A stretch of 64,000 nucleotides of DNA from a virus, in the IMG/VR virus record IMGVR_UViG_3300037961_004224, positions 1-64,000 of that record. One strand, given 5' to 3'. Positions 18,481 to 36,905 of the stretch are shown here, piece after piece. Position numbers and translations under genes: made by a program. Each line of letters opens with the position of its first letter. Position 1 is the stretch's first letter. The notes beneath the pieces are model-generated. The model was given only the letters and a program-made list of their open reading frames with translations, did no database searches and was not told the origin of the DNA.

Positions 18481-19169
18481 TGGGAAGCAATGCTGGACCT
18501 GATATAGTTGAAGATGGACTGGTCCTTTGCTTGGACGCAGCTAATGATCGAAGTTATCCGGGTGCGGGGACTACGTGGACTGATCTTGCAGGAAACAATA
18601 ATGGCACATTACACAATAGCCCCACCTTTGACACCGCGAATGCCGGTAGTATTGTATTTGATGGCACTAATGATCGCGTAGCAATATCACTAGGAAGTTT
18701 GCCAACACCTCAAAATTCTACTAATTTTACTTACGAGGCAGTTGTAAAGTTTGACTCGCTTGGATCGAGGACGATATTTTCTCAAGAGGCCGGATCGGGT
18801 ACTGGTAGAATATTTCTTGGAGTGCATACTAATTCTAAACTCGTTACTTTTATAACTGGATCTGCCGAACAACCAGATTTTTCCGCATTGAGTACGGGTA
18901 CAATATATCATGTCGCTCTCATAGTATCTCAGACACAATTAATGCTGGAACCATCAATAGCTATTGCTTTGAATGGCGTGGTGGATAGTATCGCTTCAAC
19001 CGTTATCGGCTACACTGGAACTGGAGACATTAATATCGGCACAGAACCCGGTGCTGGTGGGGGTTTCTTAGACGGAAATGTTCTTACTGTTAGAATTTAT
19101 AATCGTCCTTTAGGTGAGAAGGAATTATTTCAAAACTATAGAGCTATAAAAGGAAGATATCAACTATGA
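18480..19169 (+). CDS. LamG/concanavalin A-like virion protein 3
   Basis: DGLVLCLDAANDRSYPGAGTTWTD, IVFDGTND, RIYNRPL...NYRAIKGRY. Confidence 0.85.
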   Translation: MGSNAGPDIVEDGLVLCLDAANDRSYPGAGTTWTDLAGNNNGTLHNSPTFDTANAGSIVFDGTNDRVAISLGSLPTPQNSTNFTYEAVVKFDSLGSRTIFSQEAGSGTGRIFLGVHTNSKLVTFITGSAEQPDFSALSTGTIYHVALIVSQTQLMLEPSIAIALNGVVDSIASTVIGYTGTGDINIGTEPGAGGGFLDGNVLTVRIYNRPLGEKELFQNYRAIKGRYQL

Positions 19170-20398
19170 AAAGAAGAGATTTTATAAAGTTAGGAGTAGG
19201 TACATATGCATTCGGAAATGTTACAGCGACTATCGCAGACGATAAGCAGACTGACGATCCAGCAGTATTGTTCCTTTTTCTTGGTGGTGGGGCTAGTCAT
19301 ATTGAGACTTTTAATCCTATACCTCTTGCTCCTGCTGACAGGAGATCTGTAACTGGCGATATAAAAACAAATGTTGCTGGAATAGAATTGGGTGGTCTTT
19401 TTAAAGAGCTTTCAAAACGCACAAATAAAATAGTTATACCTAGAGCTTTTGGTCACAGAGATCAAAATCACGCATCTGCCGTTCATTGGGTTGTAACTGG
19501 AGAAGCAAATTTTGGTGCTGGAACAAGTTCTAAATGGCCTAGCTATGGATCTATGATGAGCAAACATCATGGTGTAAATACAGACGATGGACTTCCTACA
19601 TATGTAAAACTAGGAAAGTATGACCATAATGGTGCAGCTTGGTTAGGCGGTAAATATACTGGGTTCGATGCAACCAAAGAGGGTAGAAAAGACCTACAAC
19701 TCATGCGTAAAAGTGAAGATTTTAAAACAAGAATTAATGTTTTAAATGTCATAGACAATAGTTTTAAAGCAAAAGATCAACAATTGGCTAAGGACTGGAG
19801 AGATTTACGTAATCAATCAGTAGATATTATTCTTGGAAATGGATCAAAGGCATTCAGGGTAGAAGAAGATAAAGATTACAATAAATTTAAAGAAGCTACA
19901 CTTGGACAAGATGCACTTACTGCAATTAGATTGCTAGAAGCTGGCTCTAAATTTGTATCATTAAGCTATGGAGGCTGGGATATGCACCAAAATATTGGCC
20001 AGTCACTCCAGACAAAACAAGCAGAGCTAGATCATTACTTAGCAAAAATAATGGATACTTTAGAATCAAGAGGTCTATATGAAAGAGTGATGCTAATTGT
20101 AACATCTGAATTTGGAAGAACGCCTAAAGTAAACCAAAATCAAGGTCGTGATCATTTTGGCAAACTAGCACCCCTCATGATTAGTTGTGGATCATATGAA
20201 ATGGGAAGAACGATTGGGTCGTCAAGTCCAAATGCAGACGATGTTGAAGATGGTCGCTGCACTCCAGAAGATTTAGCTTGGACTATATACGATCATCTTA
20301 ATATGAATAGAGCATCTAGATATACAGCAACAGACGGCAGGCCGCACAATATAGTAAAAGATGATGCTAAAAATATATTAAAAGATATTCAAGCGTGA
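19166..20398 (+). CDS. DUF1501 family protein with twin-arginine signal
   Basis: MKRRDFIK Tat motif; FLFLGGGASHIETFNP, WPSYGS, GGWDMH, TSEFGRTP, GRDHF, TPEDL. Confidence 0.88.
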   Translation: MKRRDFIKLGVGTYAFGNVTATIADDKQTDDPAVLFLFLGGGASHIETFNPIPLAPADRRSVTGDIKTNVAGIELGGLFKELSKRTNKIVIPRAFGHRDQNHASAVHWVVTGEANFGAGTSSKWPSYGSMMSKHHGVNTDDGLPTYVKLGKYDHNGAAWLGGKYTGFDATKEGRKDLQLMRKSEDFKTRINVLNVIDNSFKAKDQQLAKDWRDLRNQSVDIILGNGSKAFRVEEDKDYNKFKEATLGQDALTAIRLLEAGSKFVSLSYGGWDMHQNIGQSLQTKQAELDHYLAKIMDTLESRGLYERVMLIVTSEFGRTPKVNQNQGRDHFGKLAPLMISCGSYEMGRTIGSSSPNADDVEDGRCTPEDLAWTIYDHLNMNRASRYTATDGRPHNIVKDDAKNILKDIQA

Positions 20399-20461
20399 TC
20401 TTAATAATTGCAAGCACTGTGCAAGCAAATTTTATATTATTTTAAAATTGGAGGTTTTAAG

Positions 20462-20608
20462 ATGCGATTATTTAACGGGCCATTAGGTCAATTTATTAAA
20501 AAGCATAGATTGATTAGACGAACCGCATTCTTTGGCGGCTTGGCAGTCGGTGTATACTTTATTGGTGTTGCTGCTGGTTGGTGGCCAAATGTATTAGCTG
20601 GAGGCTAA
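20462..20608 (+). CDS. small membrane peptide
   Basis: GGAGG RBS; basic N-terminus followed by one TM helix. Confidence 0.6.
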   Translation: MRLFNGPLGQFIKKHRLIRRTAFFGGLAVGVYFIGVAAGWWPNVLAGG

Positions 20609-20615
20609 TGATCAC

Positions 20616-20642
20616 GGGGAGATGGATTCTCCCCATTTTTTT
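20616..20642 (+). terminator. rho-independent terminator
   Basis: GGGGAGA/TCTCCCC stem plus T-run. Confidence 0.8.
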
Positions 20643-20690
20643 AATAGTTGTATTAGCTTAATTAGCTTTGTCAACTAGAATGGGGTTGAA

Positions 20691-21254
20691 ATGCTTGTGA
20701 TAAAAATATTTATGTGTGTTATACTGGCAGACTTTATAACTGGCTTAGTACACTGGATAGAAGATACATATGGCGTACCTGACTGGCCTTTTGGGTTAGG
20801 AAAGAATGTAGTAGAACCTAATATTATTCATCATCAACATCCTAATTGGATGATAACAATGAGTAATGCAATACAAAGAAACTACATTACAGCTATCCCA
20901 GCATCCATAGCAATTTTTATTGCTTACTATTTTTATGGATGGTCATGTTGGCCTTTTGCAACAACAATTTTAATCGCTGGTTTTCTAGGCAATGAAATTC
21001 ATGGTTGGAATCATACGCCTATCTCAAAACTCAACTGGTTTATAAAATTTTTGCAAGATACTGCTATAGTACAAACTAGACATCAACATGCACTTCATCA
21101 TAAAAAGCCATACAATAAATATTATTGTACAATAACAAATTTAACAAATCCAGTGCTAGAGCTTATCTATTTTTGGAGAACACTTGAATTTTTACTATTA
21201 AAAATATTTGGATTAAAAACAAAAAGATGTACGGAGGTTAGGAACGGTTATTAA
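20691..21254 (+). CDS. CarF/TMEM189(PEDS1)/FAD4-family lipid desaturase
   Basis: ADFITGLVHWIEDTYG, IHHQHP, EIHGWNH, HALHHKKP...YYCTIT..TNPVL...FW..LE match the family His pattern; TM helices present. Confidence 0.85.
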   Translation: MLVIKIFMCVILADFITGLVHWIEDTYGVPDWPFGLGKNVVEPNIIHHQHPNWMITMSNAIQRNYITAIPASIAIFIAYYFYGWSCWPFATTILIAGFLGNEIHGWNHTPISKLNWFIKFLQDTAIVQTRHQHALHHKKPYNKYYCTITNLTNPVLELIYFWRTLEFLLLKIFGLKTKRCTEVRNGY

Positions 21255-21280
21255 ACACTAAAACACGAAAGGGGTTTAAG

Positions 21281-21772
21281 ATGTCGTTAATTATCAGACT
21301 AATTATTTTGGGAGTTGTCATAATGGGTTGTTGTGGAGGTTCATGTCATGGTGACAGAAATCTAGATGAATATATTTCACTTTCTGGAAAATCTGCATTA
21401 TTGTCAAAACAAGAGGACGATAGTGAAGATAAGGAAGTAAAATATAAAGAGGGGGACGTAATTGTTATGCAGTTTAGTGCTGTATGGTGTGGTCCCTGTA
21501 GAGCGTTAAAAGCATCAATTAAATCAGATGCAGAAATACAAAATTATTTTAAAAAAGAAACTAAGGGTTATTTTATAGTAGATGTTGATGATAAGGACAA
21601 AACATCTGCTGCTTGGGTAAAAAAAGCAAAACCTAGTTCCATACCTCTTGTTGTTTTATATAAAAGAGAAAAAGATTCATGGAATGAAGTTAGCAGATTT
21701 ACTGGATCAAAACCACCAAGTGCAGTACTAAAATGGCTTAAAGAAAAGAACAAGAAGTCACCAGTAAAATAG
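21281..21772 (+). CDS. exported/membrane thioredoxin
   Basis: FSAVWCGPC active site; hydrophobic N-terminal signal ending in Cys. Confidence 0.85.
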   Translation: MSLIIRLIILGVVIMGCCGGSCHGDRNLDEYISLSGKSALLSKQEDDSEDKEVKYKEGDVIVMQFSAVWCGPCRALKASIKSDAEIQNYFKKETKGYFIVDVDDKDKTSAAWVKKAKPSSIPLVVLYKREKDSWNEVSRFTGSKPPSAVLKWLKEKNKKSPVK

Positions 21773-21809
21773 TTTTATTGGTTTTTATATTTTTTACAAG
21801 GAGAAATAA

Positions 21810-22073
21810 ATGAAGTATGTAGTTGGATTTTGCTTGGCCGTTTCTATCATGTTCGGCTCTTCTAATGCAAATGCACACGATGCGTGTCAACCCGTTAGAG
21901 ACTTTGCCAATGCTACCGTTTGTGCATCAGCACAGATTATTAAAAATACAGTATGTATGCCAGTCAATGTATTTAAAAAGTTTAAAGCAGAAAAGCCTTT
22001 GCGTTCAGCATTCGCTAAAAAGCCTGTTCGTTCAAGACTAGCTAAGTTTACAAAACGGTCTTGTTGCGAATAG
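21810..22073 (+). CDS. small secreted Cys-containing protein
   Basis: Signal peptide ending ANA; basic C-terminus ending CCE; GGAG RBS. Confidence 0.6.
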   Translation: MKYVVGFCLAVSIMFGSSNANAHDACQPVRDFANATVCASAQIIKNTVCMPVNVFKKFKAEKPLRSAFAKKPVRSRLAKFTKRSCCE

Positions 22074-22077
22074 TTAT

Positions 22078-22269
22078 ATGAGATGTTCAGAATGTGATAA
22101 AGAAATAAGTTGTGAAGAAAGCTTTAGATGTAGAATATGTTTTCTTTGGTTTTGTAAAAGCTGTTCTTTAAAACATTTTGGACTAAAAGAAAAGGATGGT
22201 AAAATCTACCACAAGAGTATTATTAAAAGCTTTTGGTGGATTTTGCAAAAAAGATTTTTCGGTAAATGA
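22078..22269 (+). CDS. small zinc-finger protein
   Basis: CSEC...C...CRIC..WFCKSC...H. Confidence 0.6.
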   Translation: MRCSECDKEISCEESFRCRICFLWFCKSCSLKHFGLKEKDGKIYHKSIIKSFWWILQKRFFGK

Positions 22270-22580
22270 AATATTCAAGGAAGAGATTTATGATTAAAAC
22301 ACTAAGCTTAATGTTTTGTTTGGTACTTCCCACGCTAGATAACTCTATATGGGGAGATGCTATAACAGACCAAGAAAAATGCCAAGCGGAAGCAGACTAT
22401 ATGATTAAGTATCACAAAAACTGTCATGTTGGTCCGTGTATCGGAAGATTTGAAGGTATGGGGTATAGTGTTAATGGAAAAATTCCAAACACCTGTGTGC
22501 CAAATCGTAAAATGAAACTTACAGGCGATGCTACTGCCAGAGATGGCAATAGAGTAGCTAGAGTAAGAAGCTGGAGGTAA
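22266..22580 (+). CDS. small secreted Cys-rich protein
   Basis: Signal-like N-terminus; HVG.CIGRFEG.G...TC.P...LTGDA...RVRSWR. Confidence 0.6.
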   Translation: MKYSRKRFMIKTLSLMFCLVLPTLDNSIWGDAITDQEKCQAEADYMIKYHKNCHVGPCIGRFEGMGYSVNGKIPNTCVPNRKMKLTGDATARDGNRVARVRSWR

Positions 22581-22581
22581 A

Positions 22582-22827
22582 GCATGTATAAAGATTATTA
22601 TTGATGTTGTAGGAGACTGCGGGGCAGTACCGCACACCTCCACTTGCCAAACTAAGGGGGTGAAATAGATTCGATCCACAATATGATGTAGTATATCTCA
22701 TGCACTGGTTGATAGAAGGGCCAGTATAAAAATCTATCAAACTTTTAATTGCAGATGAAAATCTTGCTTTGGCAGCGTAAGCTGTCTGGGGTTTGCCAGT
22801 ACCTTATTATCCAAACTGGCATTTTTT
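22582..22827 (+). ncRNA. ssrA: circularly permuted (two-piece) tmRNA, tag peptide (A)ADENLALAA
   Basis: Acceptor piece first: T-arm TGCGG-GGCAGTA-CCGCA (22618-34), CACCTCC-A (22635-42). Coding piece starts GGGGGTG (22656-62), giving G3:U70. P2 TCC-ACAATAT/ATGTTGT-A-GGA. pk1 ACTGG/CCAGT + TTGATAGA/TCTATCAA. Tag GCA GAT GAA AAT CTT GCT TTG GCA GCG TAA (22751-80). Confidence 0.95.
22794..22827 (+). terminator. terminator ending tmRNA coding piece
   Basis: TGCCAGT/ACTGGCA stem plus T6. Confidence 0.7.
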
Positions 22828-22851
22828 ATGCAATATATATGGTTTTAAAAT

Positions 22852-23088
22852 ATGTTAAAAAAAATATTATATTTATGTTTAATAATTTTTACATTTGCAA
22901 TAGTTATTTGCATCATGCCACGCACCCATAAGTGTCTTCATTGCAACCAAACGTGTTTTTCAGAACCAAATATAGCCTTTTGGATTTCAGGAGACCCAAG
23001 TTGTATTCATGACCATTGCTTAAAAGAATGGGATGGATTTGATTGGAGAATTCCTATGGAATGGCCCCACGGGATTTACATAGAATGA
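22852..23088 (+). CDS. small membrane-anchored Cys/His protein
   Basis: N-terminal TM helix, CLHC...C.HDHC. Confidence 0.5.
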   Translation: MLKKILYLCLIIFTFAIVICIMPRTHKCLHCNQTCFSEPNIAFWISGDPSCIHDHCLKEWDGFDWRIPMEWPHGIYIE

Positions 23089-23270
23089 AACATTTAAAAG
23101 AAACCGGCATGAGCTACTTTCAGCACATGTTACATGCACTTTATATAGGGGCTTTTTTAGTTATAGCTGGATTTTGCTGCATAACACATTCGTTTGCACC
23201 GTTTATATTTAAAAACACAGCATCTAAAATTATCACACACCTTAATGATGATGTAATCAAAAAAACTTAA
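23085..23270 (+). CDS. DUF6356-like small membrane protein
   Basis: HLKETGMSYFQH...A...G...IHS..PF.F..TAS pattern. Confidence 0.55.
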   Translation: MKHLKETGMSYFQHMLHALYIGAFLVIAGFCCITHSFAPFIFKNTASKIITHLNDDVIKKT

Positions 23271-23419
23271 TATACATACTTTTGCCAAACGTTTTTTAGT
23301 TTGCAAGAGTATAATTGCCATAGAGTAGTATCTATGGCTTTTTATTTGGAGTAAAATCATGTTAATAGAACTTGGAATAGCTTTATTTTTTTCATCTTAT
23401 TTTTTAGAGGATCAATCAG

Positions 23420-35978: not shown

Positions 35979-36905
35979 ATGAGCGACTTTAACACTCCAG
36001 ATGAGCTTATCAAAGCTTATGAGGATGGGTTTGTTGGTGGTGAATGTGACCCAGAAGATGTAATGGCATTGTTAGGAGAATTACCAATGCCTTTGTTCGG
36101 TGCTGCTGCATGGGACTTAGATTCTTCAGGTGCTGGAAAATTAAGCACACCATTTAAATCTTTACTAAAATTTGTTAAAGATTTTGGACCTTCCGAAAGA
36201 CAAACTACGGGAGACTGTGTTTCTCACTCAACAAGAAATGCCGTGGATATTACAAGGGCAGTTGAGATAGACATAAAAGGAGAAGCTGAGTCTTTTGAAG
36301 CCCGTGGAGCCACTGAGGGCATATATCAGTCCAGAGGACATATGGGACAAGGTATGACATGTTCTGGTTCTGCTAGATATGTCAATAAAACAGGTGGAAT
36401 CTTGTTAAGAAAAAATTATGGAGATGTTGACTTATCAAAATATAATTCTACTCTAGGTGCTAAGAAAAGAATACCTAATGACATTTATGTTACAGAAGCT
36501 AAAAAGCATCAAGTAAAAACTATCTCTCTTGTAACTACTATAGAAGAAGCAAGGGATGCCCTCGCTAACGGCTACGCTTTGTCGTGCTGTAGTCAAGTCG
36601 GATTTACTTCTATGAGAGATAAAAATGGAATATCCAATAGAAAAGGATCTTGGGCACACGCTATGGCATGGATTGCGTGCGATGACACTCGTAAAGTATA
36701 TGATGAAACCTTGTTCCTAATACAGAATAGCTGGGGCAAATGGAATAGTGGTCCCAAGGTTCATGGTCAACCAGACGGAAGCTTCTGGGTTAGAGAAAAA
36801 GATGCAAGGTCTATATTGAATGCAAGAGGTTCTTTTGTATTTAGTGATGTTGATGGTTTTCCTGCAAGACAATTGCCTGATTATGGCTTAGGAGGGTGGG
36901 TATAA
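35979..36905 (+). CDS. papain-like (C1-type) cysteine peptidase
   Basis: Q-TTGDCVSHS (Gln, Cys), WAHAM (His), IQNSWG (Asn). Confidence 0.85.
   Translation: MSDFNTPDELIKAYEDGFVGGECDPEDVMALLGELPMPLFGAAAWDLDSSGAGKLSTPFKSLLKFVKDFGPSERQTTGDCVSHSTRNAVDITRAVEIDIKGEAESFEARGATEGIYQSRGHMGQGMTCSGSARYVNKTGGILLRKNYGDVDLSKYNSTLGAKKRIPNDIYVTEAKKHQVKTISLVTTIEEARDALANGYALSCCSQVGFTSMRDKNGISNRKGSWAHAMAWIACDDTRKVYDETLFLIQNSWGKWNSGPKVHGQPDGSFWVREKDARSILNARGSFVFSDVDGFPARQLPDYGLGGWV

What the first reader, a model, noticed from the sequence alone, without database searches (positions are those of the whole stretch)
20691..21254. CarF/TMEM189-type lipid desaturase in a phage
Seen: the family's ordered histidines are all present (GLVHW; IHH; EIHGWNH; HALHH), along with TM segments and the C-terminal YCTIT..N..L...FW..LE block. 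Established: Myxococcus CarF and animal TMEM189/PEDS1 make the vinyl-ether bond of plasmalogens, and plant FAD4 makes delta3-trans-16:1 on phosphatidylglycerol. Inference: the phage may remodel host membrane lipids (oxidative/singlet-oxygen protection, envelope change). I do not recall this family as a standard phage auxiliary gene, but cannot verify novelty.
Basis: partly seen in the sequence, partly recalled or inferred. Interest (0 to 1): 0.75.

Follow-up and report, generated by a model that had tools for sequence, protein, structure and literature searches.

The report
Minimal lipid desaturase gene in marine phages
An uncultured marine tailed phage carries an intact, strongly conserved gene for a small iron-dependent membrane enzyme of the family that includes the plasmalogen and FAD4 lipid desaturases, but it belongs to an uncharacterised short branch found largely in phages, so it probably alters host membrane lipids in a way nobody has measured.

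Summary
ORF 20691-21254 (+, 187 aa) matches Pfam PF10520 Lipid_desat almost end to end (E 8.7e-40). It has all eight family-invariant histidines, the Asp after the first His, and the C-terminal YC..N..L..FW..E block. The record is a real tailed phage (126 kb; terminase, RNR, DnaB, primase, split polymerase) found in marine metagenomes of 12 studies.

The label "CarF/TMEM189-type" is only partly right:
- It scores 76.6 bits against NCBI's CarF equivalog model (cut-off 500).
- It lacks the N-terminal helix region of CarF/PEDS1.
- It has Asn and Ser where PEDS1 needs Phe and a ninth His.
- It sits across an SH-aLRT 94 split from all PEDS1/CarF references.

Its own 30-row clade holds 12 viral rows. 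Homologues occur in at least 14 IMG/VR contigs and in the cultured Erythrobacter phage vB_EliS-L02, where the gene is annotated "hypothetical". Their genomic position varies. One viral pair gives dN/dS of about 0.03. Close relatives lack the gene, or keep a truncated copy.

Most likely it is an O2-dependent desaturase acting on host membrane glycerolipids; substrate, position and host are unknown. No paper found describes this family in phages, although databases auto-annotate such proteins. FAD4 sequences could not be fetched.

The parts
20616..20634 (+). Terminator-like hairpin (7 pairs, then a T-run) that ends the upstream DUF1501/small-ORF unit. The desaturase therefore starts a new transcription unit.
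   Evidence: pattern scan only; sequence read.
20691..21254 (+). Short-form PF10520 (Lipid_desat) di-iron membrane enzyme, 187 aa. Invariant His are H21, H47, H48, H104, H108, H133, H136 and H137; D25 is conserved. Hydrophobic segments lie at residues 1-24 and 66-103.
21281..21772 (+). Thioredoxin-fold protein (WCGPC) with a lipoprotein-like signal (..VIMGC..), starting 27 nt after the desaturase stop codon. It is probably co-transcribed, but a functional link is not shown. Relatives keep a piece of this gene without the desaturase.
20399..23340 (+). Variable island of about 2.9 kb between the conserved DUF1501 gene and the glycosyltransferase gene. It holds the desaturase, the thioredoxin, small ORFs and a permuted tmRNA. 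In relatives at 67-78% nucleotide identity the island is about 0.9 kb and has no desaturase.
23317..23338 (+). Terminator-like hairpin that closes the island.

Best explanation
The gene encodes a minimal member of the PF10520 lipid-desaturase family, with one N-terminal membrane helix and a hydrophobic hairpin, made by the phage in the infected cell. Eight histidines and an aspartate on the cytoplasmic side hold a di-iron centre (inferred by homology). Using O2 and electrons from a host carrier, the enzyme most likely introduces a double bond into a hydrocarbon chain of the host's existing membrane glycerolipids. The bond probably lies close to the glycerol end, as in both characterised relatives (PEDS1: C1'=C2' of the sn-1 alkyl chain; FAD4: delta3-trans of sn-2 16:0 on PG). 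This would change the infected cell's membrane without new lipid synthesis. It is not a plasmalogen synthase. The gene is an accessory (auxiliary metabolic) gene that several phage lineages have picked up, kept under strong purifying selection, moved around their genomes and sometimes lost. Shown here: family membership, an intact catalytic residue set, phage origin, spread among phages, and selection. Inferred: iron centre, topology, O2 dependence, lipid substrate, and benefit to the phage.
For: Family and active site:
- PF10520 E 8.7e-40, nearly full length.
- Eight His invariant across 110 family members. All eight are essential in CarF and TMEM189 (PMC9131029).
- D25 aligns with the essential Asp.
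- AF2 pLDDT 97.7. The best solved fold, although weak, is the di-iron membrane hydroxylase Scs7p. The best viral fold is a Harvfovirus 'Lipid desaturase domain' protein, E 1.3e-7.

Phage origin:
-.
- The gene's GC (0.32) fits the genome, as it does in every other viral locus.

Spread among phages:
- 14 IMG/VR contigs.
- Erythrobacter phage vB_EliS-L02 and a 595-kb phage.
- Atlas clusters that are 50-61% viral.
- The viral label needs at least 4-6 changes on the tree.

Accessory behaviour:
- Different positions in phages that share terminase and other core genes.
- Absent from 67-78% identical relatives at this locus.
- Truncated in a complete 130.8-kb relative.

Selection and expression:
- dN 0.069, dS about 2.0 between two viral copies.
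- RNA-library contigs at 100% identity cover 20751-22111 but not the flanks (a weak hint only).
- The phage occurs in oxic marine samples.

Dependence on the host:
- No phage-encoded cytochrome b5, 2Fe-2S ferredoxin, rubredoxin or flavodoxin, so electrons must come from the host.
Against: No activity, substrate or product is known for any short-form member. According to PMC9131029, an alphaproteobacterial homologue and the plant homologues failed to replace CarF, so the family's chemistry is not uniform. Neither phage nor cellular gene neighbourhoods contain lipid genes that would point to a substrate. Di-iron enzymes of this superfamily can hydroxylate instead of desaturate; there is a weak PF04116 match (E 4.7e-4) and the nearest solved fold is Scs7p. 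The host is unknown and the clues conflict. DUF1501 and the nearest cellular homologues point to Pirellulaceae. Against that, the phage has a permuted tmRNA that was not found in 121 Planctomycetota, and 36% GC. The expression evidence comes from contigs of one RNA library, which may also hold DNA.
Confidence: 0.55

Rival explanations
1. It is a lipid hydroxylase (or other oxygenase) rather than a desaturase. It would use the same di-iron centre and O2 but add a hydroxyl group to an acyl chain or another hydrophobic envelope molecule.
For: There is a weak match to PF04116 FA_hydroxylase (E 4.7e-4, below its cut-off). The nearest solved fold is the sphingolipid alpha-hydroxylase Scs7p (TM 0.46, E 1.9). 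Atlas neighbours include FA_hydroxylase clusters. It is established that membrane di-iron desaturases and hydroxylases interconvert with few changes (own knowledge).
Against: The match to PF10520 is 116 bits stronger than the match to PF04116. Both characterised PF10520 members are desaturases. The fold matches to hydroxylases are weak.
Confidence: 0.17
2. It is a FAD4-like enzyme that makes a delta3 (trans or cis) double bond on the sn-2 acyl chain of phosphatidylglycerol, helped by the thioredoxin-fold protein encoded next to it. This mirrors plant FAD4, which needs the peroxiredoxin PRXQ.
For: PG is a common bacterial lipid (own knowledge). FAD4 needs the thioredoxin-fold protein PRXQ when reconstituted in yeast (PMC12456178). 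A thioredoxin gene starts 27 nt downstream and is covered by the same RNA-library contigs. An unrelated 64% GC phage has a thioredoxin-fold gene two genes upstream of its copy.
Against: The thioredoxin has a lipoprotein-type export signal, whereas the basic C-terminal half of the desaturase (12 K+R against 4 D+E) should face the cytoplasm. The thioredoxin is not next to the desaturase in the other viral loci, and a relative keeps part of it without the desaturase. Plants usually have Arg at the ninth-His position (PMC9131029), and the phage has Ser. No FAD4 sequence could be fetched, so the phylogeny is untested.
Confidence: 0.15
3. It is a true CarF/PEDS1 plasmanylethanolamine desaturase that turns host alkyl-ether lipids into plasmalogens.
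For: It is in the same Pfam family, and the eight universal His and the Asp are present.
Against: NF045946 scores 76.6 bits against a cut-off of 500. The essential Phe is Asn44 and the ninth His is Ser58 (PMC9131029). The N-terminal 70-120 residues of full-length references are missing. An SH-aLRT 94 split separates it from the references. Complete aerobic plasmalogen pathways are concentrated in Myxococcota (PMC13012113). The one lipid-pathway family searched for in the phage record, glycerolipid acyltransferase PF01553, was not found; specific ether-lipid families were not searched.
Confidence: 0.05
4. The protein is not catalytic in the phage context. It could be a membrane-inserted factor for superinfection exclusion or lysis timing, or a decaying passenger gene.
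For: A truncated copy lies in a complete relative's genome, and the gene is absent from close relatives. It sits in a variable island.
Against: All eight metal-ligand His are invariant in every full-length viral copy examined. dN/dS is about 0.03. This pattern is expected for a working enzyme, not for a scaffold or a pseudogene.
Confidence: 0.05

Closest known systems
CarF (Myxococcus xanthus) / PEDS1 = TMEM189 (animals), plasmanylethanolamine delta1'-desaturase
   Same: Same Pfam family, PF10520. It has the same eight essential His and the Asp four residues after the first His (PMC9131029). The predicted helical membrane fold is the same, with a C-terminal YC..N..L..FW..E block.
   Different: It is about 100 residues shorter, with only 20 residues before the first His against 73-121 in full-length references. 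It has 'PNIIHH...TMS' where PEDS1 has 'FREHH...TRH', so the essential Phe and the ninth His are missing. It fails the equivalog model, 76.6 against 500 bits. It lies in a separate clade.
FAD4 (plant and algal chloroplast delta3-trans-16:1 phosphatidylglycerol desaturase)
   Same: Same Pfam family. Like FAD4, it lacks the ninth His (plants usually have Arg there; PMC9131029). A thioredoxin-fold gene lies next to it, which recalls FAD4's need for PRXQ (PMC12456178).
   Different: The phage has Ser, not Arg, at that position. It has no transit peptide or long N-terminus. The neighbouring thioredoxin looks exported. No sequence or tree comparison was possible because no FAD4 sequence could be fetched.
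Cyanophage vFAD (DesC-like delta9 acyl-lipid desaturases; Roitman et al., ISME J 2018, PMC5776448)
   Same: It is a phage-encoded, O2-dependent, di-iron membrane enzyme thought to modify host membrane lipids in place, and it behaves as an auxiliary metabolic gene.
   Different: It belongs to a different protein family: vFADs have the classical HXXXHH/HXXXXH boxes of DesC, and PF00487 is not among the window protein's Pfam matches at E up to 1. The hosts differ, and vFAD activity has been shown in yeast whereas this protein is untested.
Short-form bacterial PF10520 proteins (uncharacterised; e.g. Pirellulaceae and Vulcanimicrobiota MAGs, and a largely Verrucomicrobiota Atlas cluster)
   Same: They share the ~180-220 aa architecture and the same motifs. 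They are 34-45% identical to the window protein. They fall in the same large short-form clade. Structural TM-score to the Atlas cluster is 0.92.
   Different: These are cellular, stand-alone genes in ordinary chromosomal contexts. None has a known function, so they do not help to name the substrate.

Membership tests
Pfam PF10520 Lipid_desat (CarF/PEDS1/FAD4 superfamily) | Profile match above the gathering score over most of the domain | tested here: met
   137 bits against a cut-off of 26.4, E 8.7e-40, profile positions 2-173 of 175.
Pfam PF10520 Lipid_desat (CarF/PEDS1/FAD4 superfamily) | The eight histidines conserved in all homologues and essential in CarF and TMEM189 | tested here: met
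   H21, H47, H48, H104, H108, H133, H136 and H137 are invariant in the 110-sequence alignment that includes PEDS1 references. Their essential role is taken from PMC9131029.
Pfam PF10520 Lipid_desat (CarF/PEDS1/FAD4 superfamily) | Integral membrane protein with the His clusters next to transmembrane helices | tested here: met
   Hydropathy analysis and the AF2 helical model with pLDDT 97.7. The topology itself is inferred from the charge distribution only.
CarF/PEDS1 plasmanylethanolamine desaturase (NCBIfam NF045946 equivalog) | Score at or above the equivalog cut-off | tested here: not met
   76.6 bits against a cut-off of 500; model positions 58-234 of 269 matched.
CarF/PEDS1 plasmanylethanolamine desaturase (NCBIfam NF045946 equivalog) | Ninth essential His (CarF H113, mouse H131) and essential Phe (mouse F118) in the motif FREHH..TRH | tested here: not met
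   The phage has N44 and S58 at these positions, while all PEDS1/CarF references have F and H. The roles of these residues are from PMC9131029.
CarF/PEDS1 plasmanylethanolamine desaturase (NCBIfam NF045946 equivalog) | Four-helix topology with an N-terminal extension before the first His | tested here: not met
   20 residues precede H21, against 73-121 in full-length references (39 in one partial record).
CarF/PEDS1 plasmanylethanolamine desaturase (NCBIfam NF045946 equivalog) | Falls inside the PEDS1/CarF clade | tested here: not met
   An SH-aLRT 94 split separates 27 PEDS1-type rows from 69 short-form rows that include the window protein. FastTree gives the same picture.
CarF/PEDS1 plasmanylethanolamine desaturase (NCBIfam NF045946 equivalog) | Makes the vinyl-ether bond; complements delta-carF | not testable with these tools
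   Needs a complementation assay and lipidomics.
FAD4 (delta3-trans PG desaturase) | Groups with plant FAD4 in a tree; Arg at the ninth-His position | tested here: inconclusive
   The position holds Ser, not Arg (the plant residue is from PMC9131029). No FAD4 sequence could be obtained, so no tree was made.
FAD4 (delta3-trans PG desaturase) | Dependence on a thioredoxin-fold redox partner (PRXQ) | tested here: inconclusive
   A thioredoxin gene lies 27 nt downstream, but it looks exported and is not linked to the desaturase in other phages.
Phage auxiliary metabolic gene | Lies inside a bona fide phage genome, has cellular homologues, is variably present, and is under purifying selection | tested here: met
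   Phage genes on both sides and in the whole record. Cellular homologues. Variable presence and position. dN/dS about 0.03.
Cyanophage vFAD / DesC-type desaturases (PF00487) | Match to the FA_desaturase profile | tested here: not met
   PF00487 is not among the Pfam matches at E up to 1.

The most novel reading that the evidence does not exclude
The short forms make up a phage-enriched branch of the PF10520 family that carries out a third, so far undescribed lipid modification, neither vinyl-ether formation nor delta3-trans desaturation. Unrelated marine phage lineages would then repeatedly recruit it to re-engineer the membrane of the infected cell, and the cultured Erythrobacter phage vB_EliS-L02 would offer a system to test this at once.
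Probability: 0.25. Interest if true: 0.7.

Novelty: new variant of a known kind. Interest (0 to 1): 0.5.

Why it matters
Only two activities are known for the PF10520 family, and both are unusual: the plasmalogen vinyl-ether bond, and delta3-trans-16:1 on PG. The profile search found 2,437 sequence clusters, and most of the top 150 are short proteins with no assigned function. Several come from phages of very different GC content and genome type.

That phages keep this gene under strong purifying selection suggests that changing host membrane lipids during infection pays off well beyond the cyanophage delta9 case.

A homologue in a cultured phage-host pair (Erythrobacter litoralis DSM 8509 and vB_EliS-L02), listed there as hypothetical, makes the question testable with ordinary genetics and lipidomics. 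The result would also give a function to the whole short-form branch in bacteria.

Tried and rejected
- **FAD4 references.** Two profile searches returned only PEDS1-type or short-form proteins, or nothing. The PNAS 2026 paper has no held supplement. The FAD4 branch is therefore missing from the trees.
- **Solved structures.** No solved relative by sequence. Foldseek against the PDB gave only weak Scs7p matches. The pdb_via and pdb_via_wide libraries were not available.
- **Naming metagenomic clades.** Cluster look-ups gave almost no organism names.
- **Gene neighbourhoods.** Neighbours in cellular and viral loci were checked for lipid genes; none was found.
- **Phage-encoded partners.** Cytochrome b5, Fer2, rubredoxin, flavodoxin and a glycerolipid acyltransferase were not found in the 126-kb record, which is 81% complete.
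- **Cultured relatives.** None at DNA level. Terminase identity to cultured phages is at most about 27%.
- **Host assignment.** A planctomycete host was considered but not adopted, because the clues conflict.
- **Promoter.** The scan was no better than shuffled sequence, 16 sites against 15.3 expected, so no promoter is claimed.
- **Deletion joint.** A contig joint in run X4 that skips 19900-23376 has only 21 letters on one side and is not used as evidence.
- **RNA-library gaps.** Stretches of X13 without cover are not evidence of silence.

Full report
**1. The observation**

Nothing of 40 aa or more overlaps it on the other strand.

It matches Pfam PF10520 (Lipid_desat) at E 8.7e-40 and 137 bits over profile positions 2-173 of 175. 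All quoted motifs are present.
- The protein has ten histidines.
- Eight of them (H21, H47, H48, H104, H108, H133, H136, H137) are invariant in 16 close homologues.
- The same eight are invariant in a 110-sequence alignment that includes fish PEDS1, protist PEDS1 and myxobacterial-type CarF relatives.
- The C-terminal block (C146, N153, L156, F161/W162, E166) is conserved across 165 family members.

AlphaFold2 with that alignment gives an all-helical model with mean pLDDT 97.7 and pTM 0.91.

**2. Is it a phage?**

Yes.
- The window is the first 64 kb of an IMG/VR virus record of 126,253 bp with CheckV completeness 81%.
- Genes are tightly packed on one strand in the window.
- The window encodes RNR, a DnaB-type helicase, a primase and a split DNA polymerase.
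- The second half of the record encodes a large terminase, a minor head protein and very large structural proteins.
- No cultured phage is close: there is no DNA match, and terminase identity is about 27% or less.
- A 98% identical protein sits on a 140.9-kb contig.
- The DNA occurs in marine, seawater, sponge and coral-reef metagenomes of 12 studies.

**3. Which kind of PF10520 protein?**

It is not a CarF/PEDS1 orthologue.
- NCBI's equivalog model for CarF gives 76.6 bits against a cut-off of 500.
- PMC9131029 states that eight His are universal and essential. It adds that a ninth His (CarF H113, mouse H131) is essential, or nearly so, for PEDS1 activity and is replaced in plants (usually by Arg) and in Alphaproteobacteria. 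It also states that an Asp (mouse D100) and a Phe (F118) are required.
- Aligned against named PEDS1/CarF-type references fetched here, the phage protein keeps the Asp (D25). It has Asn44 for the Phe and Ser58 for the ninth His: 'PNIIHH..TMS' against 'FREHH..TRH'.
- It has only 20 residues before the first His, against 73-121 in full-length references. It therefore lacks the first helix region.

Two trees agree on its placement: FastTree with 201 rows and IQ-TREE LG+C20 'quick' with 96 rows.
- An SH-aLRT 94 split separates the PEDS1/CarF-type long forms from the short forms.
- The long-form side holds all references, the long Planctomycetota proteins and the copy of a 595-kb phage.
- The window protein sits on the short-form side in a 30-row clade (support 93) with 12 viral rows and 2 rows from Pirellulaceae MAGs.

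No FAD4 sequence could be fetched, so the relation to the FAD4 branch is untested.

**4. Distribution**

An exhaustive profile search finds 2,437 clusters at 50% identity with E of 1e-3 or better. Most of the top 150 are about 165-230 aa long.

Among phages:
- Only 2 of 50,697 GenBank phage records hold a homologue. One is the cultured Erythrobacter phage vB_EliS-L02 (42% identity, annotated 'hypothetical protein'). The other is an unannotated 595-kb phage.
- The paper describing vB_EliS-L02 does not mention a desaturase or lipids.
- IMG/VR yielded 14 contigs, from 7 to 173 kb and from 30 to 64% GC.
- In every case the gene's GC follows that of its phage, so these are resident genes rather than chimeras.
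- ESM Atlas clusters nearest the protein are 50-61% viral (Uroviricota). The nearest mainly bacterial cluster is mostly Verrucomicrobiota.
- A giant virus (Harvfovirus) has a structural relative.

Among species-representative genomes, close relatives are rare:
- Two Pirellulaceae MAGs, two Vulcanimicrobiota MAGs and two partial hits.
- In Planctomycetota, 29 of 301 sampled genomes carry PF10520.
- In the trees, most of the Planctomycetota copies that were fetched and placed are long PEDS1-type forms, and the fetched short forms fall in another short-form clade.

**5. Behaviour as an accessory gene**

- Phages that share terminase (46-49% identity), portal-region genes, Clp protease and GDP-mannose dehydratase with this phage carry the desaturase at other positions: next to the terminase, next to the dehydratase, or next to the homologue of the ORF at 35979.
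- Two contigs at 67-78% nucleotide identity are syntenic from DUF1501 to the glycosyltransferase. They have an island of about 0.9 kb instead of 2.9 kb and no desaturase. One retains part of the thioredoxin.
- A complete 130.8-kb relative with terminal repeats keeps only residues 69-186 and has no N-terminal remnant upstream.
- Two viral copies that are 89% identical in protein give dN 0.069 and dS about 2.0, a ratio of about 0.03.
- All full-length viral copies keep the eight His.

**6. Local context and expression**

- A terminator-like hairpin (20616-20634) precedes the gene, and another (23317-23338) closes the island.
- A thioredoxin with a lipoprotein-like signal starts 27 nt downstream.
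- Small ORFs and a permuted tmRNA follow (RF04321, 84.3 bits).
- In one marine metatranscriptome library, four contigs at 100% identity cover 20751-22111 (desaturase, thioredoxin, ORF87). No exact contig covers the flanking DUF1501 or glycosyltransferase genes, although 19800-20700 was part of the search stretch. These are contig data from an RNA library that may hold DNA, so this is only a weak hint of transcription.
- The phage record holds no cytochrome b5, Fer2, rubredoxin, flavodoxin or glycerolipid acyltransferase. Any electron supply and substrate must therefore be the host's.

**7. Mechanism**

Shown here:
- family membership
- an intact ligand set
- a confident helical membrane model
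- phage residence
- purifying selection

Inferred:
- The eight His and D25 bind two irons on the cytoplasmic face. The C-terminal half has 12 K+R against 4 D+E, and all CarF His are cytoplasmic (PMC9131029).
- O2 and a host reductant drive removal of two hydrogens from a lipid chain.
- Both known family activities act on intact glycerophospholipids close to the glycerol, so a head-group-proximal double bond in a host phospholipid is the best guess.
- A hydroxylase outcome is the main chemical alternative.
- The FAD4/PRXQ precedent makes the neighbouring thioredoxin a lead. Its export signal and its lack of linkage in other phages argue against a partnership.

**8. Host**

The host is unresolved.
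- Pointing to the Planctomycetota-Verrucomicrobiota group: DUF1501 with a Tat signal and the nearest cellular homologues.
- Pointing elsewhere: the permuted tmRNA, which did not pass the cut-off in any of 121 Planctomycetota sampled, and the 36% GC.

**9. Novelty**

- Phage lipid desaturases are known, namely the cyanophage delta9 vFADs of another family (PMC5776448).
- PF10520 is a known family, and databases already auto-name viral members.
- No paper in the library connects PF10520, CarF, FAD4 or Kua with phages.
- What is new is a phage-enriched, short, PEDS1-atypical branch with untested chemistry, plus a cultured system in which to test it.

This is a sound, moderately interesting finding rather than a new kind of system.

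Noticed in passing
window 22582-22780 (+): A permuted (two-piece) tmRNA gene (Rfam RF04321, 84.3 bits, E 1e-15) lies in the same variable island as the desaturase. ARAGORN did not report it. No permuted tmRNA passed the cut-off in 121 sampled Planctomycetota, which conflicts with the planctomycete host clues.
   Followed up: partly
window 19166-20398 (+); L027, L030-L037: The Tat-signal DUF1501 protein has an 84% identical copy on small contigs (JABXKB010000239.1 and another) of a MAG labelled Promethearchaeota. These contigs are syntenic with the phage at 67-78% nucleotide identity, so they are almost certainly phage contigs binned into an Asgard archaeon MAG.
   Followed up: partly
window 16952-19169 (+): Three consecutive paralogous Laminin_G_3 (concanavalin-like) proteins lie directly upstream of DUF1501. 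Their function was not examined.
   Followed up: no
window 21281-21772 (+); L024 8423-9385: A thioredoxin with a lipoprotein-like signal (WCGPC) lies 27 nt after the desaturase. An unrelated 64% GC phage contig has a 320-aa thioredoxin-fold protein two genes upstream of its own desaturase. This may be coincidence.
   Followed up: partly
L026 9971-10345 (IMGVR_UViG_3300023199_000021, 130,845 bp, terminal repeats): A complete related phage genome keeps only the C-terminal two thirds of the desaturase (residues 69-186). Three of the eight His are lost and no remnant lies upstream.
   Followed up: yes
L061 2965-3423 (LR756511.1, 595-kb uncultured phage): This jumbo phage's PF10520 copy (152 aa) carries the PEDS1-type Phe and a His at the ninth-His position ('EFQEHH..LYH'). 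It groups with the PEDS1/CarF-type clade, though on a very long branch.
   Followed up: partly
L050 2337-2873 (Erythrobacter phage vB_EliS-L02, OL955261.1, UIS25202.1): A cultured CbK-like phage has a 178-aa PF10520 homologue annotated 'hypothetical protein', lying between phoH and the portal gene. Its paper lists 14 auxiliary genes but not this one.
   Followed up: yes
L038-L049, L056-L060 (Planctomycetota genomes): About 10% of sampled Planctomycetota (29 of 301) carry PF10520. Many of these are long forms with the full PEDS1 signature (FREHH..TRHDFIETNG) that group with PEDS1/CarF references. This hints at aerobic plasmalogen capacity in this phylum.
   Followed up: partly
window 35979-36905 (+): Homologues of this 308-aa ORF (no Pfam match) lie directly downstream of the desaturase in three or four other viral contigs (L020, L021/L022, and one gene further on in L017). 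In the window itself the two genes are 15 kb apart.
   Followed up: no
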